Shown: positions 618 to 17,699, counted from the first letter of the stretch. The stretch: 24,000 nucleotides of DNA from Virgibacillus sp. SK37 (GCF_000725285.1 NZ_CP007161.1:581911-605910), one strand, 5' to 3'. Translations and numbers: made by a program. Notes: generated from the letters alone by a model not told the origin.

Positions 618-3005
618 TTGACTATTAACACGGAACTAACTAATGAAGAAAAAAGCTATATTTTAGGTTGTGCAATATTATTTATAAAACATTTTGAATC
701 AGACCGGCGATATACAAGTTATTTAGAGTTTGCTTATTACATTATTTTAAAATATTCCATAAGTTACGAAGACTATTCACCTCTATACGATTTTTCAATT
801 AACTTTGGCTTTTATCCAATTGCAAAGGATGTAATTAATTATAATTTATTAGGGAATCAACTCAGTTTACACGATAGTCTGCAGGAATTAAAAATTGATA
901 ATTTCTCAACTAAGAATTATATTGAGACGTACCAACAAAAAGAAGTAAGAAGAAACTTATTAAATGATGATTCACAAAATATAAGTTATGTAGCCCCTAC
1001 ATCCTTCGGAAAAAGTTCACTTATTATAGAGCATATTCTGAATAATGGTCATTATAAAAAAATAGGGATTATTGTTCCTACTAAATCTCTTTTAATCCAG
1101 ACTTATAGATCCATAAGGGAATCAAATATATACAGAAGGATTTTAATTCACGATGAAATGTATAAGAATGATGAAAAATTCATAGCAATTTTCACTCAGG
1201 AAAGAGCGCTCCGATTATTAGACAAAAATAATGTATTCTTTGACATATTATATATTGATGAGGCGCATAACTTGTTTGGAAAAGATTCTAGAAATATTCT
1301 ACTTTCAAGATTAATTCGAAGGAACAGATTGCTTAATCATAACCAGAAGACTATATATTTATCGCCATTGATATCTGACAGTGACAACCTAAAGATAAAC
1401 GAGCAGCAGGAAGGTATTAGTGAACAAAGGATATCCAATAACTTAAAGGAACCTGAGATTTTTGAATATAGGTTATCAGGAAAAGCATTCCAATATAATA
1501 GATTTGTAAATGAATTTTACCAACTCAGTAATTCAGCTAACAGCCTCACCTATATAAAACAAAATAAAGGGCAGAAAAATTTTATTTATATTAGATCTCC
1601 TAGAAAAATAGAAATGTTTGTTAAAGAATTTGCTTCAACCATAGATAATATAAATGATGAAGACACCAGTATTAACGAATTAATCGTAGAACTAGAAAAA
1701 TTTGTTCATAAAGATTTCTTTATGATAGAACTACTTTCTAAAGGTATTATTTATTTACATGGCAAAATGCCTGATATAGTTAAGGAGTTTTTGGAATATA
1801 AGTTTAATAGAATTAACAATCTTAAATATGTGGTTGCTAATAGTGTAATATTAGAAGGAATTAATTTACCGATTGACACACTTTTTATATTAAATACATA
1901 TAACTTAAATGGTAAAGAACTTACTAATTTAATGGGTAGAGTTAATAGGCTCAACAATATCTTTAATGGATTTTCAAATGAGTTACATAGGTTACTCCCC
2001 CCCATACATTTCGTTAATACAGAAACTTATAATAGAATAAATAGTAAAATGGAAAATAAAATAAAAAGTTTAAGAAGTAATATATTTGAGGATAAAATTG
2101 AGAATCCAACATTAGAATCTTTTGATTTTGAAAAATTAAAGATAGACCAAGATAGAAGGGTAGAGGCAGAAGAAAGATTTAATAGAATAAAAGAAAATGA
2201 GGATATATTATTTAATAATAAAGATGATAAAATCAGCCAATTAAAGAGGTATTTAATTAATTCTGGATTGGAGAGTATGTATGACATTAGAAATGATGAA
2301 TTCTTAAATCAGTTACTAATGAAGATTAATAGATTTGAAAAGCAGCAAACTACTGAATGGTTAGAATTGGATATTATAGACAAAATAAATTCAGTATTTA
2401 TTGAGGACTTAGAAAAATATATTATTGACTTTGAGTTTGCTAGGCTGTCTAATTCACAGGCTAGGAATTACTACAAAATGTACTTATTCAATTTTCGGAC
2501 ATACTCATTAAAAGATAATATTATTGCAACTTTTAATTATTTCAAGAAGAGAGTAAGTAAAGGAAATAGTCTATTTTATATAGGAAATTCATATGGCGAA
2601 GAAAGTAAGCAAACTGACAACTATTCGGATAGAAATAAAGAAGTTTATGTAGATTTATCAAATAAGACAGATCCAGAAATAATTAATTTAGCTATTGTTA
2701 AAATGAAAATTGAAGAAGACTTCATCAACTACCAGTTAAATAAATTGGTTGTTGCACTGTACGATTATTCTTTAATTTCTCAGGATGAATATCATTTAGC
2801 TATATATGGAACTAATGATGAAAAAAAGATTAACTTGATCAAAACAGGATTGTCTTTAAATTTAATTACTAGACTTCAAAAAGATAACCAACTTAAAAAT
2901 ATTCATTTGGATATAAATAATAATTTAGTAACAGACTTAGAATTTGAAAACTATAGAAGTACGATGCAGGGACTTTATCGATTTGAATTGGATAAATTCC
3001 TATAA
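618..3005 (+). CDS. SF2 DEAH-box helicase, 795 aa; candidate Hachiman HamB-like helicase
   Basis: Walker A APTSFGKSS (GKS 1008-1016), motif II YIDEAHNL (DEAH 1257-1268), motif VI-like NLMGRVNRL. The TTG at 618 is the first start-like codon after an in-frame TAA (528-530). A strong GGGGGGAG at 534-541 has no canonical start codon behind it, so the true start is uncertain. Confidence 0.6.
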   Translation: MTINTELTNEEKSYILGCAILFIKHFESDRRYTSYLEFAYYIILKYSISYEDYSPLYDFSINFGFYPIAKDVINYNLLGNQLSLHDSLQELKIDNFSTKNYIETYQQKEVRRNLLNDDSQNISYVAPTSFGKSSLIIEHILNNGHYKKIGIIVPTKSLLIQTYRSIRESNIYRRILIHDEMYKNDEKFIAIFTQERALRLLDKNNVFFDILYIDEAHNLFGKDSRNILLSRLIRRNRLLNHNQKTIYLSPLISDSDNLKINEQQEGISEQRISNNLKEPEIFEYRLSGKAFQYNRFVNEFYQLSNSANSLTYIKQNKGQKNFIYIRSPRKIEMFVKEFASTIDNINDEDTSINELIVELEKFVHKDFFMIELLSKGIIYLHGKMPDIVKEFLEYKFNRINNLKYVVANSVILEGINLPIDTLFILNTYNLNGKELTNLMGRVNRLNNIFNGFSNELHRLLPPIHFVNTETYNRINSKMENKIKSLRSNIFEDKIENPTLESFDFEKLKIDQDRRVEAEERFNRIKENEDILFNNKDDKISQLKRYLINSGLESMYDIRNDEFLNQLLMKINRFEKQQTTEWLELDIIDKINSVFIEDLEKYIIDFEFARLSNSQARNYYKMYLFNFRTYSLKDNIIATFNYFKKRVSKGNSLFYIGNSYGEESKQTDNYSDRNKEVYVDLSNKTDPEIINLAIVKMKIEEDFINYQLNKLVVALYDYSLISQDEYHLAIYGTNDEKKINLIKTGLSLNLITRLQKDNQLKNIHLDINNNLVTDLEFENYRSTMQGLYRFELDKFL

Positions 3006-3144
3006 AGATTTTAATGTGATTTTTTCCCTAAAGGAAAATAAATTTATGAAATTATGGCTTTCTATTATCTTCAGTATTTTCAATAAGAATTGTTTAAAAA
3101 ATTGGAATAGAGATTTACAAACTTTTTATTTGGGAGTCATTTAA

Positions 3145-6100
3145 ATGGAATTAATTAATTTTTTGGATAATAGAATTCAAGATGCAGTAAGACCCTACCA
3201 ATTAGATGCATTGGATAATATTAACCGCTATCTATACAGTGATTCTAACAAACAAGCTCTAATCAAGATGCCAATGGGAACAGGAAAAACAGTAATTATC
3301 GCAATAGCAGCTGCATTTTTCCCACATATCAAAAATTGTTTAGTAGTAACAAGCTCATCTGCAGTAAAAGAACAGCTTATAAAGGATATAAAAATAGGTG
3401 TTTGGAGCAATTTAAGTGTCCCCTTTTGTCCAATAAAACCTGTAGTCGAGTTATTACCGTCAGATTCAGGTAGGATTAACACTGATCAACACCCAACAAT
3501 ATATGTATGTACGGTTCAATCCTTGCTAAGAATTAAACAAGAGAATAATAGTAATTATAACTTATTAAAAAATAAATTGGATTTAGTTATATTTGATGAA
3601 GGGCATAAAGAACCAGCACAACAATGGCAAGCTACAATTAGAGAGCTAGAGGCTAAAGTAGTACTGTTTTCAGCTACTCCTGTCAGGAATGACTTGAATA
3701 AATTTTCAATAGATAATCAATTTGTATTTACGTATTCTTTTATTGATGCTGTTAATCAAGGTTATGTGAAAGATGTAATTTTTTCCATAATAGATTCAAC
3801 GACAATTTCAAACTCACAAAGGGTAGGTGAGTTTGTATCATACATTAATAATTCATTAGAGAGTTACGTTAATGAATATGATTGTGACAGAGATGAAGTA
3901 AAAGTAATTATAAGGTGTAATACAGATGAAGAGATTGAAATGCTAGTTGATGAATTAAATAACCGAGGATTAAAAGCAAAAGGAGTACATGAAAAATTTG
4001 CACAAGCAAATTCGAAATTACTTCAAAATGTACCTAGTGATTTACGAAGCGATGACACAGTATGTTGGGTTCATCAGTATAAACTGGTTGAAGGAATAGA
4101 TAATTATAAATTTTGTATTCTTGGTATCTATCAAGCGCTTCCTGACCCTCGTTCATTTGTTCAACAAGTAGGAAGAGTTATTAGAAAAAGAAATATAGAC
4201 ATAAATCAAAGTGCAAAAATCATTGTCTGGGATCATCAAGATTACCAATTACAATGGTGGGATTCTTATTTTAATTATGAAAGAGCTATAAGTGATGGAG
4301 AGACAGATACTGTTTTTAGTTTTTCTGAATACTTTTCGAATTTGTTAACAATTAGCCCTTCTGTTATGTATTTAAACAAGAAATATTTAAAACGATACTC
4401 AGTGGAAGAAGATATTAATAATCTATTTAAACTAGAGAAATACCAACTTCCAAAGAAAACAAACATATATGAGAGTCATTTAGAAGAATTTGATATTAAT
4501 AGTGTATTTACTAAAACAATAGATGCTATTCATAATGAATTAATATTAAGAGATAACAATATTCTCGATAAAATAGTAATTAATGAAAACCATACAGTTT
4601 GTTTTATTTATGCACATTATTATAATAGTCCGTATTTAACAAAGGAAGTATTACTAGAGCAAAAAATAGGGATATTAATTTTTAGAATTATAGAAAAAAC
4701 TTTATTCCTATATGATACTACAAATTTTACTCCAGAGCATATAAAGGAAGAATGGAAGAGAATTTCGGCTCTGAAATTAAAAAAACTTTTTGATAGAGAT
4801 ACATCATTTTCGTCAGCTACTATTCAAAATGGTAGTATAAATTTTAATCATTTTAATAGAATGGTTCTATATTCAGACGACATTGCACAGATGGCTCCAA
4901 GCATATCAGATCAATATAACTTCCTTACTACAGTCCAAAGTAAAAAAAGTAATTTAAGTGGACAATCATCATTAAGAAGGTATGTAGGGTTTTCAAATGC
5001 GCGAATTAGTCAGGCTTCCACAATGACTAGACTGGATCTGTATATAGATTGGCTAGACCAACTTTATCACTCTTTATATAGAGAAGGTGATGATCATACA
5101 TTTTTTCAAAGATATGCACCTGTAACTGACATACCGGAAGAGACAGAGCCAGTGAGCATACTGTTACAATTTGAGGGTAATGAATTAATTCAAGATTCTG
5201 TTGGGACTCTAATTGAATTAGACAGTAATTTTTATAGAATTACAGATAGAGTTTTTTACTTAAAATATATGCAAGAAGAATATGAGGTAGAGATAACATT
5301 TAATACAATTAAAGGCGAATATAATTTGCAATTTAGGAATGAAGAAGACGAACCAGACATCTTTTATGGAAAGCAACGAATATTAAATTGGCTGAATGAT
5401 AACCAGTCATTTCAACTTCTTTTAAATCAAAATGAATATCGTTATTTTAAGGGATATTTTTATAAGCTCGGTGTGCCAAGAAATTACGGTGGTCTATTAA
5501 ATTATCTTGATGAGAACAGCATTCAACTGTCAGCAAGAACTAAAATTAATGAAAAAGGAAAATTTTATAAGGATGGATCACCACAACCCAATACAGCAAT
5601 TTGGGATAAAAATTCTTTGTTTTATTTAGTTGCTAAAAAAGGAATAAATATAAATAATAATTCAAAATTAAAAAGATTATTGCAGGATTCTGATTATGTT
5701 ATTTGTACTGATTTAAATAGTGAGATAGCAGATTTTATAACTGTAAGTGAGTCAACGAACACAGTTTGTTTTATCCATTGTAAAGCTGGAAAAAGCAAGC
5801 TTTCAGCCTCTGCTTTTCAAGAGGTTTGCGGCCAAATATTGAAAAATTTAGACTACGTAAATGATGTGAGTAATAGGTTACCTGTTGATTTAGAAAGATG
5901 GAATGGTATTTGGACACATCGTAGTTATAGAGCTGTAGTTAATAGACGAATAATCAATCCTGATAATATATCTTCTGAAGATATCTGGAATAAACTTAAA
6001 GAAATTCAAACTAACCCAGATTCAACAACAAATGTAATTGCGCTTGTAGGAGATGCATTTTCCAAGGAAACATATGATCGTGAAAGCAGAAAGCCGTGGG

Positions 6101-6210
6101 GTAGACAAAAACCCGAAAAAATACAGATAGATTATATACTGCTTGAAACCGCATTAGCAGTAGAGCGATCTCAAGCAAAATTTTTAGTCTCATACACAAA
6201 AAAAGTGTAA
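3145..6210 (+). CDS. 1021-aa DExH (ResIII-like) SF2 helicase with a large unassigned central region and a restriction-endonuclease-fold-like C-terminus
   Basis: RPYQLDAL, Walker A MPMGTGKT (3277-3291), FDEGH (DEGH 3595-3606), SATP, QQVGRVIRK. C-terminal ADFITV (D at 5731-5733) ...VCFIHCKAGK (H-C-K 5776-5784) resembles the D...(E/Q)xK core of Mrr/NERD-type nucleases. GGGAG lies 8 nt before the ATG. No convincing terminator in the 139-nt gap to the upstream helicase. Confidence 0.6.
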   Translation: MELINFLDNRIQDAVRPYQLDALDNINRYLYSDSNKQALIKMPMGTGKTVIIAIAAAFFPHIKNCLVVTSSSAVKEQLIKDIKIGVWSNLSVPFCPIKPVVELLPSDSGRINTDQHPTIYVCTVQSLLRIKQENNSNYNLLKNKLDLVIFDEGHKEPAQQWQATIRELEAKVVLFSATPVRNDLNKFSIDNQFVFTYSFIDAVNQGYVKDVIFSIIDSTTISNSQRVGEFVSYINNSLESYVNEYDCDRDEVKVIIRCNTDEEIEMLVDELNNRGLKAKGVHEKFAQANSKLLQNVPSDLRSDDTVCWVHQYKLVEGIDNYKFCILGIYQALPDPRSFVQQVGRVIRKRNIDINQSAKIIVWDHQDYQLQWWDSYFNYERAISDGETDTVFSFSEYFSNLLTISPSVMYLNKKYLKRYSVEEDINNLFKLEKYQLPKKTNIYESHLEEFDINSVFTKTIDAIHNELILRDNNILDKIVINENHTVCFIYAHYYNSPYLTKEVLLEQKIGILIFRIIEKTLFLYDTTNFTPEHIKEEWKRISALKLKKLFDRDTSFSSATIQNGSINFNHFNRMVLYSDDIAQMAPSISDQYNFLTTVQSKKSNLSGQSSLRRYVGFSNARISQASTMTRLDLYIDWLDQLYHSLYREGDDHTFFQRYAPVTDIPEETEPVSILLQFEGNELIQDSVGTLIELDSNFYRITDRVFYLKYMQEEYEVEITFNTIKGEYNLQFRNEEDEPDIFYGKQRILNWLNDNQSFQLLLNQNEYRYFKGYFYKLGVPRNYGGLLNYLDENSIQLSARTKINEKGKFYKDGSPQPNTAIWDKNSLFYLVAKKGININNNSKLKRLLQDSDYVICTDLNSEIADFITVSESTNTVCFIHCKAGKSKLSASAFQEVCGQILKNLDYVNDVSNRLPVDLERWNGIWTHRSYRAVVNRRIINPDNISSEDIWNKLKEIQTNPDSTTNVIALVGDAFSKETYDRESRKPWGRQKPEKIQIDYILLETALAVERSQAKFLVSYTKKV

Positions 6211-6299
6211 TCAAACTTTTACAATTATATTATTCTAAATAACCCAATCTTTAATAATTGAAGGATTTTAACAATGAACTTTTTTAGGGAGTAGAAAAA

Positions 6300-6373
6300 A
6301 TGAGAGCTTCTCTACATGTTAAGCATTACACCAGTATGAATGAAGGTTTTATACTAAAGAGTAAATATTTAAA
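6300..6373 (+). pseudogene. Severed 5' fragment (first ~24 codons plus RBS) of the deaminase-like gene that resumes at 7807/7817
   Basis: GGGAG (6287-6291) then ATG 6300, encoding MRASLHVKHYTSMNEGFILKSKYL. The frame runs into the ISL3 end and stops at 6398-6400. Deleting 6374-7806 joins it in frame to the 7817 ORF (...KYLNWQK-MIVELK...). Confidence 0.7.
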
Positions 6374-7798
6374 GGTTCTCAGTCAAATGTGGTGGTGTGA
6401 TTTTCACTCCACCATCTCTTTTATTAAAAAGCCTTTGCTTAAATAGCTGCGTACGTATATTGGTTGCCGTTTCTATTGTGTCAAAACCCTTCTAACCTCT
6501 TGTCGCCACAGTATTTTCTTTTTTAATCGATTAAAATTTTTAATTCCATACGACATTCGTTTTGCCACTTTAATTGTATTATTTACGCCTTCAATATATC
6601 CATTATTAAAAGGATACATAAAGGAATGCAAGATCTCTTGCTTCCACCGCTCAAATGTTTTTCTTACTCTATGAAAAGACTCAATATTAGAATCCTTCAT
6701 CGCCATTAAACATCCTTCTAGACCCTGTGTAGCGGTCTTTTCGTTACTCTCTTTAAACCACTGATCAAGTTTGTTTTTTAGGTTGTATGCCTCTTCTAAT
6801 CGAGGATCAACCTGGAGTAACTGATTTACTTTCTCTCGCTCTTCTTCTGATAATTTATAGGTTGATTTCCAAAGTAACTTTTTACTTTTTTTCATATATA
6901 TCCGGTCTTTTTTCTCTAAGTCTCTTTGCACTTCTCGACGTACTTCATCTAGCGCCCAATATACTTGCCGCATAAAATGAAATCGATCAGCGATGATCAG
7001 TGGGTTACCAAGCGCCTTCCGTATTGCTTGCTTAAAAGACTTAGAAAGGTCCATGACGACAATCTCTACGTTACTTGTATCACAGGACTGAAGATAAGCT
7101 TTAATTGTATCTACCTTCCGATCAGGTAAGACATCCACAATCTCTTTATTTTCTACATCCGCAATGACCGTTTGAAACCTTTCACCGCCCGCATCCCCTT
7201 TAAATTCATCAATAGCTAACGCACGTGGCAGGACTTTCCTTGTTTTTATTTCTTTTCGATCATAAATACGAAGTAACCGTTGCGAACTCATCCCAGTTAA
7301 CTGGGCAGCTGTAGTAAATGAGCCCACAGCTGTATACGTTAGCGCTGTCGTTTGTATAGAACGGGTGCAACGTTGGTATCGTTCCACCATCTGAAGCTTT
7401 TCATAAAACGTATGATTACACGCCTTACATAAGTAGCGTCTCTTTTTCAAAGAAATACTAACTGGTTTATTGGAAACAATGGGCCCCTGAATCGTTTGGG
7501 TACGATAGCCGTGGATACTTTTTGTCCTATTGCCACAAAACGGGCACTTCTGCTTCTTTACTTTTGTATATAGCTCTACAAAAAACTTAGCTGAGTCACT
7601 AGAAACTTCCCATACATCTACATGTTTGTCTTCAATACCTAACATTTCTATGATAAAATGGTTTTGCACTCTTTCCCTCTCCTTTTCCTTTTGTGTCGCA
7701 ACTTTAGGTTAACAAAAGAGAGGGGAATGAGTGTATTTTTTTGTTTCTTACGGAAACACTGATCCTCCAAAGGAGACCACCACATTTAGTATAGAGCC
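6374..7798 (-). mobile_element. ISL3-family insertion sequence (1425 bp), complete
   Basis: Imperfect terminal inverted repeats: GGTTCTCAGTCAAATGTGGTGGT at 6374 versus the reverse complement of the right end, GGCTCTATACTAAATGTGGTGGT, ending at 7798 (17 of 23 identical by hand count). Perfect 8-bp direct target duplication TATTTAAA at 6366-6373 and 7799-7806. Single transposase ORF inside. Confidence 0.9.
6473..7669 (-). CDS. ISL3-family transposase (398 aa)
   Basis: N-terminal zinc finger CPFCG...CKACNHTF, followed by an HTH region and a DDE-type body typical of ISL3 transposases. Flanked by the IRs and target duplication described for the element. Confidence 0.85.
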   Translation of the reverse strand: MQNHFIIEMLGIEDKHVDVWEVSSDSAKFFVELYTKVKKQKCPFCGNRTKSIHGYRTQTIQGPIVSNKPVSISLKKRRYLCKACNHTFYEKLQMVERYQRCTRSIQTTALTYTAVGSFTTAAQLTGMSSQRLLRIYDRKEIKTRKVLPRALAIDEFKGDAGGERFQTVIADVENKEIVDVLPDRKVDTIKAYLQSCDTSNVEIVVMDLSKSFKQAIRKALGNPLIIADRFHFMRQVYWALDEVRREVQRDLEKKDRIYMKKSKKLLWKSTYKLSEEEREKVNQLLQVDPRLEEAYNLKNKLDQWFKESNEKTATQGLEGCLMAMKDSNIESFHRVRKTFERWKQEILHSFMYPFNNGYIEGVNNTIKVAKRMSYGIKNFNRLKKKILWRQEVRRVLTQ

Positions 7799-7816
7799 TA
7801 TTTAAACTGGCAAAAA

Positions 7817-8344
7817 ATGATAGTAGAACTTAAAAGAGCAGGTGAGCTTGGAAAAAAGGCATTTTTTAATCATTTAAATCGCAACTATGCGATAGGAATG
7901 CTAAAAACTAATATGGGAGAAAAATATTTTTATTCTACCTGCCAGATACAAAGTAAGGATGCATATAATAATTTTAAGGACAAAGTTGAAAAACATAAAA
8001 AATACATGTGGAATAATATGATTAATGATTTGTATTATGCAACTCCACCTTTCTTGTTTAATTATGTAAATGTGGACCGGTCAAGAGGAATTCGTACTCC
8101 CCATTCATGGAGTAGAGAACAAGACAGTGAAAGTGTTATCTTAGAGAAAATTAGTAAATATATGTTTGATAATAGATTGTATGATTGTAAAGTATTCATA
8201 TATTCACAAAAGGAGCCATGTTTAAACTGTGAAACAGTTTTCCAACAGTTTATTGAGAGGCACCCATTAACGAATCTAACAATATTTTATCATGAAACCA
8301 ACTATAAGCAGTTACCCTCAAAGTATAATTGGAGATTTAAATAG
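7817..8344 (+). CDS. 3' portion (175 codons from an internal Met) of an IS-disrupted deaminase-fold-like protein, possibly a toxin
   Basis: KEPCLNCE (PCxxC 8216-8230) is preceded 28 residues earlier by D-S-E (8123-8131), at the start of a helix-like stretch where deaminases carry H/C-x-E. The beta-strand-like FIYSQ and LTIFY context fits a deaminase fold. No SD precedes the ATG at 7817, and the frame is open upstream to the IS end. Confidence 0.35.
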   Translation: MIVELKRAGELGKKAFFNHLNRNYAIGMLKTNMGEKYFYSTCQIQSKDAYNNFKDKVEKHKKYMWNNMINDLYYATPPFLFNYVNVDRSRGIRTPHSWSREQDSESVILEKISKYMFDNRLYDCKVFIYSQKEPCLNCETVFQQFIERHPLTNLTIFYHETNYKQLPSKYNWRFK

Positions 8345-8347
8345 GAT

Positions 8348-8878
8348 ATGGAAATTAATAAAAATTTAATTAAAAATATTAAAAAGATAGAAGAAGAAAT
8401 AAAACTAGAGAACTTGTTTACTGCTGAAGAATTAATTGATTTAACTAAATCAAATTTAAAAGATAACTTGGAACTTTATAATAACGAGTACATTAAATCA
8501 ATTGACAGAACGATTGATGATTTATACTTGTTGTACTCTGAAAGTGTAAAAACACGATATTTATTAATTGCTACCTGTACATTTAGTTTATTAAAACATT
8601 ACGAAACTGAAATTTTTATTTCTTTTCAAGAAAATAATGCATCAAACAAGCGCAAGTCTAAATCAATTAGAACCTTTTTTAAGGAAGTTTCCGATTTGGA
8701 ATTTGGGAATATAGAACTAAGATCATACAATAATAATATTCTTCTAAATGATAACTTACCACCAACATATGTTTCCGAATATATTATTAAGCTTACGGAA
8801 GAATTGTTCTTTCTTATGCCATTAAAAATGAGTGAGGGGTTTAAAGAACTAAACTCAAAGATTTTACAAAAAATATAA
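8348..8878 (+). CDS. Hypothetical 176-aa helical protein, tightly coupled to the deaminase-like gene; candidate immunity/antitoxin partner
   Basis: ATG lies 3 nt after the upstream stop (8342-8344). No recognisable catalytic motif. The genomic arrangement resembles toxin-immunity pairs. Confidence 0.3.
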   Translation: MEINKNLIKNIKKIEEEIKLENLFTAEELIDLTKSNLKDNLELYNNEYIKSIDRTIDDLYLLYSESVKTRYLLIATCTFSLLKHYETEIFISFQENNASNKRKSKSIRTFFKEVSDLEFGNIELRSYNNNILLNDNLPPTYVSEYIIKLTEELFFLMPLKMSEGFKELNSKILQKI

Positions 8879-8951
8879 TTGTCTCTTTTTAAGTAATTGA
8901 ACTTAAAGATTACAATCATAAAAAATACTAATAATACTGGTAAAAAAATGC

Positions 8952-9100
8952 TAACATTTTGCTAACGCAATCTCATAAAAAACGGTAAATCACCGTTAAA
9001 GATGTTACAACCAACAACATCAAAAACGTTGATTTACCGCGCTTTTTGCATTCTACGTTAACGATATTACACACTCTCAGCTTACGGGCGGCATGATGTA
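8952..9100 (+). repeat. Copy A of a 149-bp direct-repeat module (partner at 18911-19059)
   Basis: Ungapped hand alignment at offset 9,959 gives 114/149 identical. The first 17 nt (TAACATTTTGCTAACGC) and last 15 nt (GGGCGGCATGATGTA) are identical. The internal motif GAT(G/A)TTACA occurs at 9001-9009 and 9063-9071. Weaker similarity extends left to about 8932. Confidence 0.85.
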
Positions 9101-9238
9101 GGAGATTTCCTACACGTCCAACCTAGCTTTTTGTGAAGCTGTTTAATGTATAAATGTAAGCGTAAAATAAAACACACATAGGAATCAGGTGGCCGCCATG
9201 AGATAATCTCTTTAGAAATTAACTCGGGAGGTTACGCA

Positions 9239-9565
9239 ATGACCCTGAAAGACAAAAGAATAGAATGGAAAGCGCGCTATAATGCCTGGAAAGATAGTGG
9301 CAAGAATATTGCTGAATGGTGCCGTGAACAAGAAATCAATGCTCATCCTATGTATTACGGGGTGCGGCAGTTTGAAACCGAACAGGTTTCGCTAGAATCG
9401 GAGTCCACTCAATGGCTGTCAGTCCAATTAGAAGAAGAATCCCTTTCTTCAGAAGGACAAGGGCCGATCTTTATTCATAAGGATTCTCTCTCGGTAGAAG
9501 TACGGCCAGGAGCTGATATGGGCTTACTATCCGATATCATGCATCTTTTACATAAGCAATGCTAA
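9239..9565 (+). CDS. tnpA: IS66-family accessory protein TnpA (108 aa, HTH-like)
   Basis: First ORF of the IS66 unit. Its stop overlaps the tnpB start (ATGCTAA at 9559-9565). Confidence 0.8.
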   Translation: MTLKDKRIEWKARYNAWKDSGKNIAEWCREQEINAHPMYYGVRQFETEQVSLESESTQWLSVQLEEESLSSEGQGPIFIHKDSLSVEVRPGADMGLLSDIMHLLHKQC

Positions 9566-9915
9566 CCAATACCTCTTATGATCGAGTTTATCTAGCCCGT
9601 GGGAGTACTGATCTTCGAAAGTCCATTGATGGATTAGCGGTCATCGTGAAAGAATGTTTTGACCTGGATCCCTTTTCTCCCAGCCTCTTCGTATTCTGTA
9701 ATCGAAAACGGGATAAGTTGAAAATCCTACAGTGGGAACACAATGGGTTTTGGCTTCATTACCGTAGGTTGGAACGGGGAACTTTTCATTGGCCCTCCGA
9801 GAAAGACGCTTCCCCTATGGATGTCAGTCCGCGCCAACTTCGTTGGTTATTGGATGGTTTGTCTCTAGAACAGAAAAAGGCCCACCATGAAGTAAAAGCC
9901 CGTACCATTCTATAA
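9559..9915 (+). CDS. tnpB: IS66-family Orf2/TnpB (118 aa)
   Basis: RVYLARGSTDLRKSIDGLAVIV...FVFCNRKRDKLKIL...GFWL is the characteristic IS66 Orf2 sequence. Translationally coupled to tnpA. Confidence 0.85.
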   Translation: MLTNTSYDRVYLARGSTDLRKSIDGLAVIVKECFDLDPFSPSLFVFCNRKRDKLKILQWEHNGFWLHYRRLERGTFHWPSEKDASPMDVSPRQLRWLLDGLSLEQKKAHHEVKARTIL

Positions 9916-9982
9916 AAGAGTGAAAGATATAAATACGAGAATTCGACTAGTCAAGTCGGATTCTTTTTCGTATACTTAATCT

Positions 9983-11560
9983 ATGAAAACGAACGAAGGA
10001 AAATCCAACAAATCAATTGAATATTACATGGAGCGCACGGAAACGTTAGAAATGGAGAATGAAGCGTTGGAAGCGAAACTAAAATGGTATGAAGAACAAT
10101 TTCGACTCAGCCAACAGCGCCAATTCGGATCTTCCAGCGAGAGAATTCACCCGGATCAACTCTCCCTTTTTAACGAAACGGAGGTAACAGCTGATTCGGC
10201 TGTTGAGGAGCCCTCGGTCGAGACGATTACCTACAAGCGCAAAAAGCAAAGTGGCCAGCGAGATAAGCAACTGGAGAACCTGCCGAAGGAAACGATTGAG
10301 TATCGTTTATCCGATGAGGAACAGGTCTGTTCGTGTTGCCAAGGTTCTCTCCATTCGATGAGCACGGAAGTGCGCAGAGAATTAAAAGTGATCCCCGCCC
10401 AAGTGAAAGTGGTGGAGCATGTACGTCATGTTTATAGTTGTCGTTATTGCGAGCGAAATGGCATACAAACACCTATCGTGACAGCAAGTATGCCAGAACC
10501 TGTATTTCCGGGAAGTCTGGCATCTCCATCTGCTATTGCTTATACCATGAACCAAAAGTATGTAGAGAGCATGCCTCTGTATCGGCAGGAGAAACATTGG
10601 GAACGCTTTGGCATTTCCATTCCACGGCAGACATTGGCCAATTGGATTACTTATGGGGCCAGCACCTGGCTCTCCCTTATTTACGAACAACTGCACACAC
10701 ATCTTTTAAACCAGGATAGCCTCCATGCGGATGAAACAACGCTGCAGGTTCTTTCCGAACCGGAACGCCCTGCCACGTCGACATCCTATATGTGGTTGTA
10801 TCGCACAGGAAGCGAAGGTCCGCCTATTGTTTTGTATGATTACCAGCAGACACGAGCAAGCAAGCATCCACGTCGCTTTCTAGATGGCTTTCAAGGATAC
10901 CTGCATGTCGATGGGTATGCTGGTTACAACGGCCTTCCCGGAGTAACGCTGGTTGGATGTTGGGCACATGCGCGCCGTAAATTTACTGATGCCCTCAAGG
11001 CATTACCTGAAAATGCGAGCACGACCAACTTGAAAGCGAAAGAGGGACTTGCCTTCTGTAATCAGCTGTTTAGCATTGAACGAGAATTAAAAGACGTCTG
11101 TGCTGACGAACGTTATAAAAAACGATTAGAGCGCAGCCAGCCAGTGCTGCAGGCTTTTTCAACATGGCTACGTGAACAGACACCACGCGTTCTGCCTAAA
11201 AGCGCTCTTGGCCAAGCAATCAAGTATTGTCGTAATCAATGGGATCGTTTAGGAGGATTCCTTAAGGATGGTCGTTTGGAAATCGATAACAATCGTGGAG
11301 AACGTTCCATTAAACCCTTCGTTATAGGAAGGAAAAACTGGTTGTTCAGTAATACAGCCAAAGGGGCAACCTCCAGCGCAATTGTTTATAGTATTGTGGA
11401 AACTGCAAAGGAAAATGGACTGAACCCATTTCATTATCTGGAATACTTATTTGAGAAGCTTCCCAATATGGATTACACAAACAGTGAAGACTTAAATCAG
11501 TTTCTGCCTTGGTCACCGACAATTCCGGAGGAATGTAGGGTCCCTAATAAAACTAAATAA
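9983..11560 (+). CDS. tnpC: IS66-family DDE transposase TnpC (525 aa)
   Basis: Leucine-zipper N-terminus, [12 protein letters not shown], zinc finger CSCC...[14 protein letters not shown] and CWAHARRKF blocks typical of IS66 transposases. Confidence 0.9.
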
Positions 11561-11633
11561 ATCATAACAATAGTCCCCATCTAATTAAAGGTGGGGACTA
11601 TTTTACGCTTACGTATAAATAGTTAGTTAGAAG

Positions 11634-11671
11634 AAGACTACTTCCTAAGTAAAAGGAGGTAGTCTTTTTTT
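11634..11671 (+). terminator. Rho-independent terminator
   Basis: 13-bp stem AAGACTACTTCCT (11634-11646) / AGGAGGTAGTCTT (11654-11666) with one G-U pair and a 7-nt loop, followed by a T-run to 11671. Confidence 0.6.
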
Positions 11672-11812
11672 GTGTTGTTAAAATTTGCATATCAAGATTT
11701 TATGGAAGACCGAAAATTTAGAAACACTACCAAGGTTAATATTCAAAATTACAAAGTTTTGTTAGGAGGATTTGTTAATTATTGTCAGGAGAACAAGTTT
11801 ACAACGTATTAG
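11672..11812 (+). pseudogene. N-terminal remnant (46 codons) of a tyrosine recombinase/phage integrase
   Basis: VLLKFAYQDFMEDRKFRNTTKVNIQNYKVLLGGFVNYCQENKFTTY* matches the SAM-like N-terminal core-binding pattern of Firmicute integrases (F..F...R......T...Y...L..F..YC). It ends at TAG 11810-11812, and no integrase catalytic domain follows in any frame. Confidence 0.5.
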
Positions 11813-11964: not shown

Positions 11965-12525
11965 ATGATTGATAAATTCAAGGATTTTATTATAAGTGTA
12001 CTAGCCTCTTTAGTAGCTACATTTTTAACCACATATGCTTACCATTTTATACAGATTGGGAAGGCTTTAGACTTCAGGGGATTTATAAATATAGTTATTA
12101 ACTACACATACTTAGTATATTGGATATTATTATTATTACTGGTGATTATTGTTCGTTGGTTTATAAGAACTAGAATTGATAAGTTACAAATACCCTATCC
12201 TATGGTAAGGAGTATAGGAAGTCGCTATGATTTAGAATACAGTGGAGAAGGGTATGGATTCAAGTGGAAGATATATGCGGATACTAAACGTAAAGATCCA
12301 TTTTCTAATGAAATAATGGATATAAATGTAGGTAGAGTAGATGGCCCCTATTGTAAAAATGATTATAGAAGAATGATAGTATCAAGAACATATTTTGGAA
12401 GGTATAGATATAAGTGTCCTAAATGTGGTTATAAAAGAATCCTATTAAAAAATATTTGGACACTTGAGTGTGATATTGAAGATGAAATTGAGGCTAAATA
12501 TAGGGCTAAGGTTAATACCATATAA
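11965..12525 (+). CDS. Hypothetical membrane protein (186 aa): two N-terminal TM helices plus a Cys-knuckle C-terminal domain
   Basis: Hydrophobic segments FIISVLASLVATFLTTYAYHFI and TYLVYWILLLLLVIIVRWFI. C-terminus is GPYC-x20-CPKCG-x16-C. No enzymatic motif recognised. Confidence 0.55.
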   Translation: MIDKFKDFIISVLASLVATFLTTYAYHFIQIGKALDFRGFINIVINYTYLVYWILLLLLVIIVRWFIRTRIDKLQIPYPMVRSIGSRYDLEYSGEGYGFKWKIYADTKRKDPFSNEIMDINVGRVDGPYCKNDYRRMIVSRTYFGRYRYKCPKCGYKRILLKNIWTLECDIEDEIEAKYRAKVNTI

Positions 12526-12707
12526 AAATTATGCTCATAATTGTTTGGAAGGTAACAAGGAAAAACCACCTAATCCATGTATAGAAATATGGGCTGTATG
12601 TTAACTATAAAAACATCATTAGTTCAGGCGGAAGATTAACACTAATACAGTGTACTTATGTTTTTATTTTTCATTACAAAGACTGAGCATTGAAAGGAGT
12701 TCACCCA

Positions 12708-14312
12708 TTGATAGAAAAAGTAATTATTAAAAACTATAAATCTATTGATTATCTAGATTTAAAATTAGACGACACAATAAATATTCTTGTTGGTAATAAT
12801 GAACAAGGAAAATCTACTATATTAGAAGCCGTTAATTTAGCACTAACTAGTACATTAAATAAGAGAAATATACATAATGAACTAAATCCATTTCTTTTTA
12901 ATAAGACTGTTGTTGAAGATTACATAAAAAACATTAGTAAAAATAAGCGTGTAATCCCACCTAGCATACTTATAGAAATATATTTAAAGGAAGATAATCA
13001 GAATGCATCTTTGAAGGGGTCAAACAATTCAATTAAAGAAAATGCATGTGGCATTAGTTTTTCCATAGAATTTGATGATGACTACACTGAAGAATATCAA
13101 CAATACATAGAACAATCGACTAATATAAGAAATATACCGATAGAGTATTATAAAATTAATTGGTATTCCTTTGCATCTAATCCAATAACTTCACGAAGCA
13201 ATCCTATTAAATGTGTATTAATTGATCCAACGGAAGGAAAGGCATGGAACGGAACAGACAGGTATATTTCAAGTGTAATTGGTGATACCCTAGACCCTAA
13301 ACAGCGCGCAACTTTAAATTTTAATTTTAGGGATATTAAAGAGAATTTCTCTCAAGTTGAATCTATATCAAAGATTAATAGTACACTCTCTAAAAAAACA
13401 GGTGATATCTCAGATAAAGAACTTGCTATTTCTCTAGATATATCTCAAAAGAATGGATGGGAATCCAATTTGACTGCTTATCTGGATGATATACCTTTTG
13501 ATTTCATTGGGAAAGGTGAGCAAAACTCGGTAAAATTGAAGTTATCACTCGAATCAAATGCTGAAGAGGCTCAAGTAATCTTAATTGAAGAACCAGAAAA
13601 TCACTTATCTCATTCAAATATGCAAAAATTAATTAATCAAATCTCCGAAAAATGTGAAGGGAAACAGTTAATAATTACAACACATAGTACTTACGTTTTA
13701 AATAAACTTGGTTTAGATAAAGTAGTATTGATGAATAATGGAAAACACATAACATTAAGAGATTTAAATGAGGATACTTATAATTATTTTAAAAAGTTAC
13801 CCGGTTACGATACACTTAGATTATTGCTAGCTGATAAGGCTATTTTAGTAGAAGGCCCATCAGATGAGTTAATTGTTCAAAAGGCATATCTTCAAAAACA
13901 TAATAGGCTTCCTATCGAAGATGGTATAGATATTATTACTGTAAGAGGATTATCATTTAAGCGCTTTCTTGAGATAGCTGATCTTCTAAATAAAGAGGTT
14001 GCTGTTGTTACCGATAATGATGGAGACATTGTTAAGCACATTATTGAAAAATATGGTGATCATTACCTAAAACATCCAACAATCAAAATTTGCTATAGTG
14101 ACGACACGAGATATGCAACGTTAGAACCACAGTTGGTATCAGCAAATGAGTTATCTATATTAAATGATATTTTAGGGAAGGATTATACATCAGAGGCTGA
14201 GCTTATTAAATTTATGACAAGTTCAGGTAATAAAAGTGAGTGTGCAATGCGTATTTTTGATTCAAACCAAAAAATTATTATACCGGGGTATATAAATGAT
14301 GCAATTCAATAA
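12708..14312 (+). CDS. gajA: Gabija GajA: OLD-family ATPase-TOPRIM endonuclease
   Basis: N-terminal ABC/AAA ATPase (IKNYKSI...LVGNNEQGKST; Walker B VILIEEPENHLSH; TTHS). C-terminal TOPRIM (ILVEGPSDE ... VVTDNDGD). Immediately followed by, and overlapping, a UvrD-like gene. I prefer the TTG at 12708 (AAAGGAG 8 nt upstream) over the track start at 12690. Confidence 0.85.
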   Translation: MIEKVIIKNYKSIDYLDLKLDDTINILVGNNEQGKSTILEAVNLALTSTLNKRNIHNELNPFLFNKTVVEDYIKNISKNKRVIPPSILIEIYLKEDNQNASLKGSNNSIKENACGISFSIEFDDDYTEEYQQYIEQSTNIRNIPIEYYKINWYSFASNPITSRSNPIKCVLIDPTEGKAWNGTDRYISSVIGDTLDPKQRATLNFNFRDIKENFSQVESISKINSTLSKKTGDISDKELAISLDISQKNGWESNLTAYLDDIPFDFIGKGEQNSVKLKLSLESNAEEAQVILIEEPENHLSHSNMQKLINQISEKCEGKQLIITTHSTYVLNKLGLDKVVLMNNGKHITLRDLNEDTYNYFKKLPGYDTLRLLLADKAILVEGPSDELIVQKAYLQKHNRLPIEDGIDIITVRGLSFKRFLEIADLLNKEVAVVTDNDGDIVKHIIEKYGDHYLKHPTIKICYSDDTRYATLEPQLVSANELSILNDILGKDYTSEAELIKFMTSSGNKSECAMRIFDSNQKIIIPGYINDAIQ

Positions 14313-15414
14313 CAAAGTTATTATTGCTGCAGCAGGTTCAGGAAAATCATCAGATCTAGTTGAAAAAGCATTGAAAAATAATGACAAAAGGATATTGATA
14401 ACAACATTTACAATAGATAATACAAAAGAAATTGAGAAAAAGTTTTTTGATAAAATTGGATATGTCCCTAAGAATGTTGTGGTTCAAACATGGTATTCCT
14501 TCCTACTAAGAGAATGTGTAAGGCCTTATCAAAACTTCTTATACGATAAAAAAAGAATTGAAAATATAAAATTTGTTAATGGTCAATCTACACTATATAT
14601 AGCTAAAACGGAAGTTGAAAAGTACTATTTTCGTGATGGAAAATATATTTATACTGACAAGTTGTGTGATTTCGTGCTTGAGGTTAATAAAATATCAAAC
14701 GGTTTGGTTATTGATCGATTAGAGAGTATATATGATATCCTAATGGTAGATGAGGTACAGGATCTAGCTGGAACAGATTTAGATTTTCTATATTTATTAT
14801 TAAAATCTAATATACATAACATTATAGTTGGAGATAACCGACAGGCTACCTACTTCACTAATAATTCAAGGAAAAACAAAAAATATAGGGGACAAACCAT
14901 TTTTGACTTGTTTAGTGATTGGCAGAAGGAAGGCTTCTGTTCTATTGTTTATAAGACAGAATGTTTCCGATGTAACCAATTAATCTGTGATATAGCAGAT
15001 TCACTTTATCCCCAAATGCCTAAAACAAATTCCATGAATGATATGGAGACTGGACACGATGGTGTTTTTTACATTCGAAGCAGTGAAGTTCTTGAATATG
15101 CAAAAAAATATTCTCCTGTTGTATTGAGATATGATAAAAGGACTAAGAATATACCAGATAATTTTACACCTTTAAATTTTGGAAAGTCTAAAGGATTGAC
15201 GTTTGATAGAGTCTTTATTTATCCAAATGGACCTATTCATAAATTTTTAAAAGGTAATTATGAGGCTATTAGTAGTCCAAAAACTAAAGCAGGCTTATAT
15301 GTTGCTTTAACAAGAGCGAGGTTCAGTGTTGCGTTTGTAACTGACCAAAAGGTAATTTCAAATGAGTTTGTTGAAGAATTCACTCTAAGAGATAGTGAAG
15401 GAATGACTGTTTAA
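14296..15414 (+). CDS. gajB: Gabija GajB: compact UvrD/PcrA-like SF1 helicase (372 aa)
   Basis: Walker A AAAGSGKSS, MVDEVQDL, GDNRQAT, FGKSKGLTFDRV, LYVALTRAR. The start overlaps the gajA stop by 17 nt. Confidence 0.8.
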   Translation: MMQFNNKVIIAAAGSGKSSDLVEKALKNNDKRILITTFTIDNTKEIEKKFFDKIGYVPKNVVVQTWYSFLLRECVRPYQNFLYDKKRIENIKFVNGQSTLYIAKTEVEKYYFRDGKYIYTDKLCDFVLEVNKISNGLVIDRLESIYDILMVDEVQDLAGTDLDFLYLLLKSNIHNIIVGDNRQATYFTNNSRKNKKYRGQTIFDLFSDWQKEGFCSIVYKTECFRCNQLICDIADSLYPQMPKTNSMNDMETGHDGVFYIRSSEVLEYAKKYSPVVLRYDKRTKNIPDNFTPLNFGKSKGLTFDRVFIYPNGPIHKFLKGNYEAISSPKTKAGLYVALTRARFSVAFVTDQKVISNEFVEEFTLRDSEGMTV

Positions 15415-15483
15415 GCTTAAATCTCCTATCAGTCAATTAACTCATAGGCACTAAATGCCTTGAATTTAATATACTTTTAACCT

Positions 15484-15492
15484 TGGTATAAT
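15484..15492 (+). promoter_or_regulatory. Candidate extended -10 promoter element (TGgTATAAT) for the ATPase-RT operon
   Basis: TGGTATAAT at 15484-15492 lies in the 228-nt gap after gajB. No good -35 at 17-bp spacing (TTGAAT at 15460-15465 is 21 nt away). Confidence 0.3.
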
Positions 15493-15642
15493 TTTAAAAA
15501 TAAGTAACTGTAGAGATAAATAAGATAAAAATAAAAACTATAGTTTTGAATATTGTTTGAAATATGTATAAAAACTGCAAAATAATTGAGGTTACAATTT
15601 GGAATAAAGATATTTGGCAAAGAGTAACTAGGAGATTAGAGT

Positions 15643-17643: not shown

Positions 17644-17699
17644 CAAGGAATATTAATATAGAGTATTCCATACCTTGAGACTTATATTCTCAGTATTTC

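What the first reader, a model, noticed from the sequence alone, without database searches (positions are those of the whole stretch)
8932..9100. 149-bp module repeated exactly 9,959 bp apart, with conserved blocks, equal-length diverged blocks and a spaced internal motif
Seen: 8952-9100 and 18911-19059 align without gaps (my hand count: 114/149 identical). The 17 nt at the left end and 15 nt at the right end (GGGCGGCATGATGTA) are identical, and similarity stops abruptly after them. The central blocks are diverged but keep the same total length. The motif (A/C)GAT(G/A)TTACA occurs twice per copy at identical 62-bp spacing, and its reverse complement TAACAT forms the left terminus. CGGTAAATC (near 8983 and 18942) can pair with GATTTACCG (near 9031 and 18990) in both copies. 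Both copies sit just downstream of a + strand operon and upstream of a + strand terminator (11634-11671 once the IS66 is removed; 19085-19117). No annotated feature explains this. Inference, two options: recombinase or accessory-protein binding arms of an att site (the spacing-constrained repeats favour this), or a structured 3'-UTR/ncRNA shared by two defence cassettes.
Basis: seen in the sequence. Interest (0 to 1): 0.7.

Follow-up and report, generated by a model that had tools for sequence, protein, structure and literature searches.

The report
Integration-site scars downstream of groEL
The repeated 149-bp module is the conserved attachment-site arm left by mobile elements that insert at the very end of the chaperonin gene groEL; it marks the right ends of two stacked elements that delivered this bacterium's anti-phage genes. 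This is a known kind of mechanism, seen here in a family that I did not find described.

Summary
In detail: 8952-9100 and 18911-19059 align without gaps (114/149 identical), and similarity stops at both ends.

The module is one arm plus the crossover core of a tyrosine-integrase att site, not an RNA. Its last 15-16 nt, GGGCGGCATGATGTA(A), are the last codons of groEL (…GGMM*).

The window's MurE is 100% identical to that of Virgibacillus sp. SK37. V. halodenitrificans has groES-groEL-DUF2187-FMN reductase-murE with no island. Its homology with the window begins exactly at the core of copy B. Copy B is therefore an attR, and 19061 onward is the native groEL flank and terminator.

Copy A is an internal junction. 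It is followed by an IS66 insertion, then a 46-codon N-terminal remnant of a tyrosine integrase.

More than 150 homologous modules occur across Bacillaceae genera. They are always co-oriented, often in arrays, and lie downstream of groEL where groEL is visible. About half are followed by a matching second arm and/or a decayed integrase gene related to that of Paenibacillus phage HB10c2, whose own attP arm is homologous to the module.

There is no covariation and no Rfam match.

Verdict: tandem accretion of decayed groEL-targeting elements. It is a new member of a known kind, of moderate interest.

The parts
8950..9101 (+). Module A: the att-site arm on the cargo side plus the crossover core. 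It is an internal junction between two accreted elements.
   Evidence: Family profile hit at E = 1.5e-48. Alignment with copy B and 130 homologues.
18909..19060 (+). Module B: the same arm plus core. This is the attR of the island, next to native chromosome.
   Evidence: Homology with the empty site of V. halodenitrificans starts exactly at 19045. Profile hit at E = 1.6e-39.
9086..9101 (+). Core of copy A, GGGCGGCATGATGTAG, equal to the last groEL codons GGMM plus a stop (TAG here).
   Evidence: The same core ends full-length groEL in L026, L047, L050, L105 and L110.
19045..19060 (+). Core of copy B, GGGCGGCATGATGTAA (GGMM plus stop). This is the crossover region shared with groEL.
8950..8966 (+). 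Candidate integrase arm-type sites in copy A: GCTAAC-N5-GCTAAC, 11 bp start to start. Copy B has GTTAAC/GCTAAC at 18909-18925.
   Evidence: These are the most conserved columns of the family. The same motif recurs at two preferred distances (clusters at 44-46 and 54-58 nt) beyond the core next to integrase remnants. Phage HB10c2 has GTAACA-N5-GGTAAC on both sides of its attP. Binding is inferred.
8994..9009 (+). First 16-nt direct repeat CGTTAAAGATGTTACA in copy A (copy B: 18953-18968).
9056..9071 (+). Second 16-nt direct repeat CGTTAACGATATTACA in copy A, 62 bp after the first (copy B: 19015-19030).
   Evidence: The spacing is 62 bp in 94 of the 104 family members that carry both repeats.
8983..9039 (+). 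Inverted repeat CGGTAAATC ... GATTTACCG in copy A (copy B: 18942-18998). It is a candidate protein-binding palindrome, not an RNA helix.
   Evidence: Both halves are kept in 61/131 members. No covariation.
9156..11612 (+). IS66-family insertion sequence, inserted 55 bp after the core of copy A. Target duplications GTATAAAT lie at 9148-9155 and 11613-11620.
11628..11672 (+). Hairpin plus T-run that precedes, and contains the ribosome-binding site of, the truncated integrase gene. It is conserved after modules in other loci.
11672..11812 (+). 46-codon N-terminal remnant of a tyrosine integrase (VLLKFAYQDFMEDRKFRNTTK...), the left end of the second element.
   Evidence: The same remnant lies after modules in at least 10 other loci. 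An 82-aa homologue hits Phage_int_SAM_4/5 below Pfam's cut-off. Database relatives are annotated as phage integrase SAM-like domain proteins.
11965..18881 (+). Cargo of the second element: ORF186, Gabija GajA and GajB, and a type I-B retron (ATPase-Toprim and RT).
120..8878 (+). Cargo ending at module A: a HamB-like helicase, a PDC-S71-like helicase, an ISL3 transposase (minus strand), and a deaminase toxin with its partner ORF.
19061..19117 (+). Native sequence downstream of groEL (the B' side of attR), including the groESL terminator at 19084-19113.
   Evidence: It is collinear and nearly identical with the sequence after the groEL stop codon in V. halodenitrificans.

Best explanation
The module is the cargo-side arm plus crossover core of the attachment site of integrative elements that use a phage-type tyrosine integrase and insert at the 3' end of groEL.

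The core GGGCGGCATGATGTAA duplicates the last five groEL codons and the stop, so insertion leaves groEL intact. After integration the arm and core stay at the element's right end, as an attR. Later elements inserting at the same core stack up in tandem. Their integrase genes then decay, leaving co-oriented modules that punctuate an island of accessory genes.

In this window copy B is the terminal attR against native chromosome. Copy A is the junction between an older or newer neighbour and the element carrying Gabija and the retron, whose integrase survives only as 46 codons.

Three parts are inferred rather than shown. The GCTAAC repeats are taken to be integrase arm-type binding sites. The two 16-nt repeats 62 bp apart (about six helical turns) and the inverted repeat are taken to be sites for the integrase, an excisionase or a DNA-bending protein that shape the recombination complex. 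In this genome both copies are most likely inactive scars.
For: - **Empty site.** The window's MurE is 100% identical to that of Virgibacillus sp. SK37. V. halodenitrificans has groES-groEL-DUF2187-FMN_red-murE with nothing between. Its alignment with the window becomes near-identical exactly from GGGCGGCATGATGTAA (window 19045). Left of that point it is groEL coding sequence and the window is module B.
- **Core equals the groEL end.** Eight related loci have groEL, or a 3' fragment of it, ending in this core.
- **Family.** A profile found 151 hits in 125 of the 126 sequences searched (the window, 120 genome loci, 3 plasmid loci and the phage locus). Every multi-copy locus or contig has all copies on one strand, and the module lies downstream of and co-oriented with groEL where full-length groEL is visible.
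- **Integrases.** Of 130 modules with enough downstream sequence, 62 are followed by a second arm with the same GCTAAC repeats and/or a convergent C-terminal remnant of an integrase that is 28-81% identical (mostly 40-73%) to phage HB10c2 Int. Nine are followed by the + strand integrase remnant seen after copy A.
- **Phage homologue.** The intergenic region abutting the 3' end of the HB10c2 integrase gene is homologous to the module (profile E = 7.5e-12).
- **Geometry.** The 62-bp and 134-bp spacings are kept in 94/104 and 87/119 members.
- **Precedent.** Staphylococcal PICIs integrate at the 3' end of groEL with an 18-bp overlap (PMC8125051). Tandem accretion with decay is an established pattern (PMC5704250).
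Against: - No intact cognate integrase, no second arm and no HB10c2-like integrase remnant is detectable in the window.
- The island's left junction with groEL lies outside the window and was not seen. Lookups for four window proteins failed, and the MurE lookup returned only short contigs to the right of the island.
- Every integrase next to a module in the sampled loci is truncated or cut by a locus end, so no demonstrably active groEL-targeting element of this family was recovered. Two scans of viral contigs found none.
- Protein binding to the motifs and recombination itself are untested.
- The element between A and B starts with a different integrase type from the one whose attP resembles the module, so the pairing of arm and integrase is not fully resolved.
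Confidence: 0.88

Rival explanations
1. The modules are still-functional recombination sites. The groEL-linked array would work as a cassette platform (CIME-like or integron-like) in which integrase-less segments bounded by modules are excised, captured or shuffled by an integrase supplied in trans by a resident or incoming element.
For: - Modules stay about 75-90% alike across genera while neighbouring integrases are reduced to fragments.
- Arrays with spacings as small as 1-2.5 kb exist, in L033, L036, L052, L057 and L085.
- About half of the modules retain a complete arm-core-arm junction.
- Cis-mobilisation of accreted elements is documented in streptococci (PMC5704250).
Against: - No intact integrase was found beside any array sampled.
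- In the window neither copy has the second arm, so A x B is not a canonical attL x attR pair.
- Conservation could equally reflect recent horizontal spread.
- There are no hits in viral contigs.
Confidence: 0.12
2. The module is a structured 3'-UTR element or small RNA shared by the upstream operons, for example for stability or processing.
For: - It lies between the stop codons of + strand operons and terminator-like hairpins, so it is probably transcribed.
- Single-sequence folds give a long imperfect hairpin, -33.5 and -32.0 kcal/mol.
Against: - RNAalifold on 131 members predicts 0 pairs.
- The proposed helices show no covariation above shuffles: 86/500 and 108/500 shuffles reach the observed score.
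- Many members break the pairs.
- Rfam gives no match at gathering scores.
- The right end is groEL coding sequence and the left end recurs beside integrase genes.
Confidence: 0.03
3. The module is an autonomous miniature dispersed repeat (MITE or REP-like) that spreads by itself.
For: It has many copies across genomes, discrete ends and a constant length.
Against: - It has no terminal inverted repeats or target duplications.
- All copies on a contig are co-oriented and clustered.
- The right end is the groEL 3' end.
- It is associated with integrase remnants.
Confidence: 0.02
4. Copy B is the non-coding RNA (msr-msd) of the adjacent type I-B retron.
For: It lies 30 bp after the retron RT gene and has about the size of a retron ncRNA.
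Against: - The same module follows unrelated genes (a deaminase pair, transporters, Avs2 and others) in the window and elsewhere.
- A better candidate with flanking inverted repeats lies upstream of the retron ATPase at 15415-15642.
Confidence: 0.01

Closest known systems
Staphylococcal phage-inducible chromosomal islands integrated at the 3' end of groEL (SeCISE48 and related islands; PMC8125051)
   Same: They use a tyrosine-integrase element that inserts at the 3' end of groEL. The att core overlaps the last codons (18 bp there, 15-16 bp here), so groEL stays intact. The islands carry accessory genes.
   Different: The host family (Bacillaceae) and the core sequence differ. No PICI gene set is present in the window. 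The integrase remnants here resemble a Paenibacillus phage integrase, and homology to SaPI integrases was not tested. A conserved 150-bp arm recurring in arrays was not mentioned in the passages of that paper I searched (only its groEL mentions).
attP-int region of Paenibacillus larvae phage HB10c2 and its relatives (Fernvirus)
   Same: The arm is homologous: 84 nt at 74% identity, and 121 nt by profile. Tandem GTAAC-type repeats lie on both sides. The integrase gene converges on the site. That integrase is 28-81% identical (mostly 40-73%) to the remnants next to modules.
   Different: The sequence at the core position differs, so the phage very probably uses another attB. That element is a complete temperate phage.
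Lambda-type attP architecture: a core flanked by arms with arm-type Int sites and accessory-protein sites (textbook knowledge, recalled)
   Same: The core is flanked by about 135 bp on one side and about 60-120 bp on the other. The arms carry repeated motifs at fixed, helical-phase-compatible spacings.
   Different: Which protein binds which motif is unknown. No excisionase was identified.
Tandem accretion and cis-mobilizable elements (CIMEs) of ICESt1/ICESt3-type islands at the fda 3' end (PMC5704250)
   Same: Successive site-specific integrations occur at the 3' end of a housekeeping gene. The recombination genes decay, and internal att sites remain in direct orientation.
   Different: A CIME keeps both attL and attR. 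Here the internal junction A has lost the second arm. No conjugation or mobilisation genes were seen.
Integron attC sites and cassette arrays
   Same: Each gene cassette ends in a recombination site of about 150 bp at its 3' end, and cassettes form co-oriented arrays next to a fixed chromosomal point.
   Different: There is no imperfect palindrome with R''/L''-L'/R' symmetry, no predicted folded single strand, no IntI-type integrase and no attI with a Pc promoter. Here the anchor is the groEL stop codon.

Membership tests
att site (attR / arm plus core) of a tyrosine-integrase integrative element | A short core identical between the element's end and the chromosomal target | tested here: met
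   GGGCGGCATGATGTA(A) ends both modules and ends groEL in 8 related loci and in V. halodenitrificans.
att site (attR / arm plus core) of a tyrosine-integrase integrative element | Comparison with an unoccupied site breaks exactly at the core | tested here: met
   The alignment of L126 (groEL-DUF2187 with no island) with window 18985-19285 is near-identical from 19045 onward and unrelated before it.
att site (attR / arm plus core) of a tyrosine-integrase integrative element | A cognate integrase gene adjacent to the att site | tested here: inconclusive
   In the window there is only a 46-codon N-terminal integrase remnant after copy A and none after copy B. In the family, 35 of 130 modules have a convergent integrase remnant and 62 have that and/or the second arm. 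The integrase is intact in phage HB10c2.
att site (attR / arm plus core) of a tyrosine-integrase integrative element | Repeated arm motifs present on both sides of the core in the unrecombined or junction form | tested here: met
   GCTAACA-N4-GCTAAC lies at the module's left end and again at two preferred distances (clusters at 44-46 and 54-58 nt) after the core in 38 module junctions and after the groEL stop. Protein binding was not tested.
att site (attR / arm plus core) of a tyrosine-integrase integrative element | Integrase-dependent integration and excision | not testable with these tools
   This needs experiments or population sequencing.
Phage-inducible chromosomal island (SaPI-type) at groEL | Integration at the groEL 3' end with an overlapping core | tested here: met
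Phage-inducible chromosomal island (SaPI-type) at groEL | The PICI gene set: int, repressor pair, primase-replicase, and packaging or interference genes | tested here: not met
   The window ORFs are defence systems, toxins and IS elements. None of those functions appears in the Pfam or PADLOC scans.
Cis-mobilizable element (CIME) from tandem accretion | A segment without recombination genes, flanked by an attL and an attR in direct orientation | tested here: inconclusive
   The segment 9101-19059 is flanked by two co-oriented cores and lacks an intact integrase. However, the left junction has no detectable second arm.
Integron attC | An imperfect inverted-repeat structure that folds as a single strand, and an IntI integrase nearby | tested here: not met
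   There is no consensus structure, the module ends are not inverted repeats, and no integron integrase is present.
Structured non-coding RNA or 3'-UTR element | A conserved secondary structure supported by covariation | tested here: not met

The most novel reading that the evidence does not exclude
The region downstream of groEL in Bacillaceae is a cassette-capture platform, not merely a graveyard. Integrase-less gene cassettes, each ending in the conserved ~150-bp arm-plus-core site, would be inserted, excised and reshuffled in trans by HB10c2-like integrases. This would be functionally analogous to an integron but built from a phage-type att site anchored on the groEL stop codon, and it would be enriched for anti-phage systems.
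Probability: 0.12. Interest if true: 0.7.

Novelty: new member of a known kind. Interest (0 to 1): 0.4.

Why it matters
- **Origin of the island.** The result explains how this defence island (Gabija, a type I-B retron, a Hachimoji-like helicase and a deaminase toxin) was assembled. Integrative elements inserted successively at one fixed point, the groEL stop codon.
- **A practical landmark.** The conserved module and its core give a simple sequence handle for delimiting accessory and defence cassettes downstream of groEL in many Bacillaceae genera. This could help mine new defence systems, as other integration hotspots have.
- **A wider target.** groEL-end targeting, documented for staphylococcal PICIs, extends here to a different integrase/att family.
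- **No new mechanism.** The finding does not reveal a new kind of mechanism.

Tried and rejected
- **Rfam.** A scan of the whole window at gathering thresholds gave no family.
- **RNA structure.** The local hairpin and the long-range CGGTAAATC/GATTTACCG helix showed no covariation above shuffled or slid controls, and RNAalifold predicted 0 pairs. The RNA reading was rejected.
- **Retron ncRNA for copy B.** Rejected, because the module follows unrelated genes elsewhere and a better candidate lies at 15415-15642.
- **Small ORF inside the module.** By eye, the reading frames differ between the two copies (19 versus 36 codons). Rejected.
- **Tn7-end or SCCmec-like resemblance.** This was recalled from memory for TGTGGGCGG and ATGATGCGG. 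It was dropped once the core proved to be the groEL end.
- **Integrase or second arm in the window.** Profile searches of the IS66-free window found nothing. No further cores or arm motifs were found.
- **Source contig lookups.** Lookups to see the left junction failed for four window proteins. The MurE lookup gave only short contigs to the right of the island.
- **Viral contigs.** Two pattern scans gave 0 hits.
- **The + strand integrase remnant.** tblastn against phages found nothing. tblastn against plasmids found one truncated homologue.
- **Literature.** Searches for a Bacillaceae groEL hotspot found nothing specific. IME8 of Lysinibacillus targets yolD, not groEL.

Full report
**1. Observation**

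The two stretches 8952-9100 and 18911-19059 are each 149 nt and align without gaps at 114/149 identities. The first 17 nt and last 15 nt are identical. Identity to the right drops to chance immediately. To the left it drops after about 20 nt of weaker similarity. The motif (A/C)GAT(G/A)TTACA occurs only at 9000/9062 and 18959/19021, 62 bp apart in each copy.

Copy A follows a deaminase-toxin gene pair (7817-8878). Copy B follows a type I-B retron (ATPase-Toprim 15643-17643, RT 17841-18881), which itself follows Gabija (GajA 12690-14312, GajB 14296-15414).

An IS66 element occupies 9156-11612, with inverted repeats and an 8-bp target duplication GTATAAAT. Terminator-like hairpins lie at 11628-11672 and 19084-19113.

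**2. The module is a widespread family with fixed ends**

BLASTN found full-length homologues with the same ends on megaplasmids of Peribacillus, Cytobacillus and Metabacillus. It also found a partial match in 14 records of Paenibacillus larvae phages.

These include Neobacillus, Psychrobacillus, Evansella, Virgibacillus, Ornithinibacillus, Lysinibacillus and Sporosarcina.

A profile built from five copies then found 151 hits in 125 of the 126 sequences searched. An alignment of 131 distinct full-length copies has 75% mean column identity. The most conserved parts are:
- TGCTAACATTTTGCTAACGC at the left end;
- two CGTTAAAGATRTTACA repeats;
- GGGCGGCATGATGTAA at the right end.

The geometry is strict. 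The two repeats are 62 bp apart in 94 of the 104 members that carry both. The left motif is 134 bp from the right block in 87 of 119.

**3. The right-end block is the end of groEL**

I searched the loci for the right-end block outside modules. This found it at the end of ORFs of 520-544 aa that finish ...MPDMGGMGGMGGMM*, the C-terminal tail of GroEL. GGC GGC ATG ATG TAA encodes GGMM plus the stop. After the block in modules the next bases are nearly always a stop codon (TAA, sometimes TGA or TAG), as the alignment shows.

**4. The decisive test in the window's own lineage**

The window's MurE is 100% identical to that of Virgibacillus sp. SK37 and 89% identical to that of V. halodenitrificans.

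The V. halodenitrificans contig carries groES, groEL, DUF2187, FMN reductase (minus strand) and murE in a row, with no island. I aligned its groEL 3' end and downstream region with window 18985-19285. The two sequences are near-identical from GGGCGGCATGATGTAA (window 19045) onward, through the hairpin at 19084-19113 and into the DUF2187 gene. Left of that point one is groEL coding sequence and the other is module B.

So copy B is the right junction (attR) of an island inserted at the groEL stop codon. The 'terminator after copy B' is the native groESL terminator. The groEL gene and left junction of the window's genome lie beyond position 1. I could not retrieve them, so that part rests on synteny.

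**5. Integrases**

In phage HB10c2 the homologous stretch lies in the intergenic region that abuts the 3' end of a phiLC3-type tyrosine integrase gene, the usual attP position. Tandem GTAAC-type repeats lie on both sides (profile E = 7.5e-12).

In the bacterial loci, tblastn with that integrase finds convergent C-terminal fragments starting roughly 60-130 bp beyond the module (28-81% identity, mostly 40-73%, ending at or near residue 413 of 413).

Between the core and these remnants lies a conserved stretch. It has three parts:
- a terminator hairpin (AAACCCTTGATATATAAGGGTTT);
- two or three GCTAAC repeats at 11-bp spacing, the same motif as at the module's left end;
- a second hairpin that ends the integrase gene.

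The same stretch follows the groEL stop codon in loci where groEL is visible.

Of 130 modules with at least 300 nt of downstream sequence, the breakdown is as follows:

| What follows the module | Number |
|---|---|
| Second arm and/or convergent integrase remnant | 62 |
| A different, + strand integrase remnant | 9 |
| Neither | 59 |

All integrases seen were truncated or cut by a locus end.

**6. Arrays**

Every locus or contig with several modules has them on one strand. Examples are four copies in 9.4 kb in B. canaveralius, three in 4.8 kb in Ornithinibacillus salinisoli, and groEL followed by three modules in B. rubiinfantis. Where full-length groEL is visible, the modules are downstream of it and co-oriented.

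This is the signature of repeated site-specific integration at one target followed by decay. The pattern is established as tandem accretion (PMC5704250).

**7. Copy A**

With IS66 removed, the sequence after copy A has homologues directly after modules in at least 10 other loci. It consists of a hairpin and then an ORF start, VLLKFAYQDF(L/M)(D/E)DR(R/K)F(K/R)NTTK..., truncated after 13-50 codons everywhere. In the window it runs 46 codons, at 11672-11812.

An 82-aa homologue on a B. thuringiensis plasmid matches Phage_int_SAM_4 and Phage_int_SAM_5 below Pfam's cut-off (E = 4e-4). Its database relatives are all short proteins that carry those domains and are named phage integrase SAM-like.

Copy A is therefore the junction between the right end of one element and the left end of the next. 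The next element's integrase has been deleted down to its first 46 codons. No second arm, HB10c2-like remnant, further core or further module exists in the window.

**8. The RNA alternative**

Rfam gives nothing. RNAalifold on the 131 members predicts no pairs. The few double changes are matched by the controls, and many members simply break the pairs.

The inverted repeat is better read as a protein-binding palindrome. The module is probably transcribed as read-through 3'-UTR, but nothing indicates an RNA function. Copy B is not needed as the retron's ncRNA. The 228-bp region upstream of the retron ATPase (15415-15642) folds with flanking AATCTCCTA/TAGGAGATT repeats typical of such RNAs.

**9. 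Cargo**

The nearest upstream ORFs of 91 modules are very diverse. Defence proteins appear (Avs2, DrmD, SoFic, type I restriction subunits, several PADLOC candidates). So do SUKH immunity proteins, transporters, a beta-lactamase and metabolic enzymes. The plasmid copies follow nickel and iron transporter operons. The module is not specific to defence cassettes. The site is a general accessory-gene hotspot that often holds defence genes.

**10. Mechanism**

*Shown:*
- the identity of the core with the groEL end;
- the exact break against an empty site;
- co-oriented arrays;
- adjacency to integrase genes or remnants;
- homology to a phage attP arm;
- conserved motif geometry.

*Inferred:*
- the GCTAAC repeats bind the integrase's arm-binding domain;
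- the 16-nt repeats 62 bp apart (about six helical turns) and the palindrome bind integrase, excisionase or bending proteins;
- both window copies are now inactive;
- the order in which the two elements arrived is unknown.

**11. Comparison and novelty**

Integration at the 3' end of groEL with an overlapping core is documented for staphylococcal PICIs (PMC8125051). The arm and core architecture is that of lambda-type sites. Accretion and decay match the CIME model. The window does not contain a PICI gene set, and the module fails the defining features of integron attC sites and of structured RNAs.

I found no paper in the searchable library that describes this Bacillaceae module or a groEL-linked defence hotspot. 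From memory, and untested here, the 'prophage 3' region of B. subtilis 168, which carries the BsuM restriction-modification genes, also lies just downstream of groEL. That would fit the same hotspot.

Verdict: a new member of a known kind, of moderate interest, mainly as a landmark for delimiting and mining accessory and defence cassettes.

Noticed in passing
window 11628-11812: A hairpin with a T-run contains the ribosome-binding site and is followed by a 46-codon N-terminal remnant of a tyrosine integrase on the + strand. The hairpin stem differs between the window (GACTACTTCC/GGAGGTAGTC) and other loci (ACCACTTCC/GGGAGTGGT) but stays paired. It may terminate read-through from groEL or the previous cassette just before the integrase start.
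   Followed up: partly
window 15415-15642: This is the likely ncRNA of the type I-B retron. It is a 228-bp intergenic region upstream of the ATPase-Toprim gene and folds with flanking AATCTCCTA / TAGGAGATT inverted repeats (MFE -43.1 kcal/mol). The 197-bp gap between the ATPase and RT genes (17644-17840) is also strongly structured (-47.6 kcal/mol).
   Followed up: partly
window 9148-11620: An IS66-family element with three ORFs (the first has no Pfam match, the second carries TnpB_IS66 and the third DDE_Tnp_IS66) and an intact 8-bp target duplication GTATAAAT. Its GC content (about 42-48%) is well above that of the surrounding island (about 26-32%), which suggests a recent insertion.
   Followed up: yes
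window 7817-8878: A BURPS668_1122-family or APOBEC-like deaminase toxin domain protein (175 aa), followed by a 176-aa ORF with no family match that could be its immunity partner. The pair sits as the last cargo before module A.
   Followed up: no
window 120-6210: A HamB-like DEAD-box helicase (618-3005), preceded by a 136-aa ORF with no match rather than a recognisable HamA. It is followed by a 1021-aa ResIII helicase whose C-terminal half matches the PADLOC candidate PDC-S71.
   Followed up: no
window 13441-15394 versus L092 1-1954 (Salirhabdus euzebyi): The Gabija genes are 94% identical at the DNA level between two different genera. In both they lie upstream of a module of this family, but with different neighbours. 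This points to recent horizontal exchange of a cassette.
   Followed up: partly
L026, L050, L054 (just after the core / groEL stop): A GC-rich insert of about 110-130 nt (AAGTTTAGGAAGCGGAAAGGGCTCGCCAGGCGCGACACGCATAAGCAGAGCG...) sits between the core and the usual terminator hairpin in three genera. In L026 and L050 the core is the end of groEL. It looks like a different small repeat or structured element and was not identified.
   Followed up: no
L076 3356-3515; L002 14670-14710: Fragments of the groEL 3' end (138 bp and about 26 bp) plus the core occur inside an array and on a Peribacillus megaplasmid, away from any full groEL. Some elements evidently carry or pick up extra groEL sequence, and parts of such islands have moved to plasmids.
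   Followed up: no
L020, L075, L090 (cores not preceded by a module or groEL): The same core is preceded by unrelated AT-rich sequence and followed by the integrase-side arm and/or a convergent integrase remnant. This suggests further element families with other cargo-side arms that target the same groEL core.
   Followed up: no
L053: A 912-bp contig labelled Halomonas sp. carries a typical module. This is probably contamination of that assembly by a Bacillaceae sequence.
   Followed up: no
window 8939-8949 and 18898-18908: A possible third, degenerate arm repeat (GGTAAA / GCTAAA) lies 11 bp upstream of the two clear GCTAAC repeats.
   Followed up: partly
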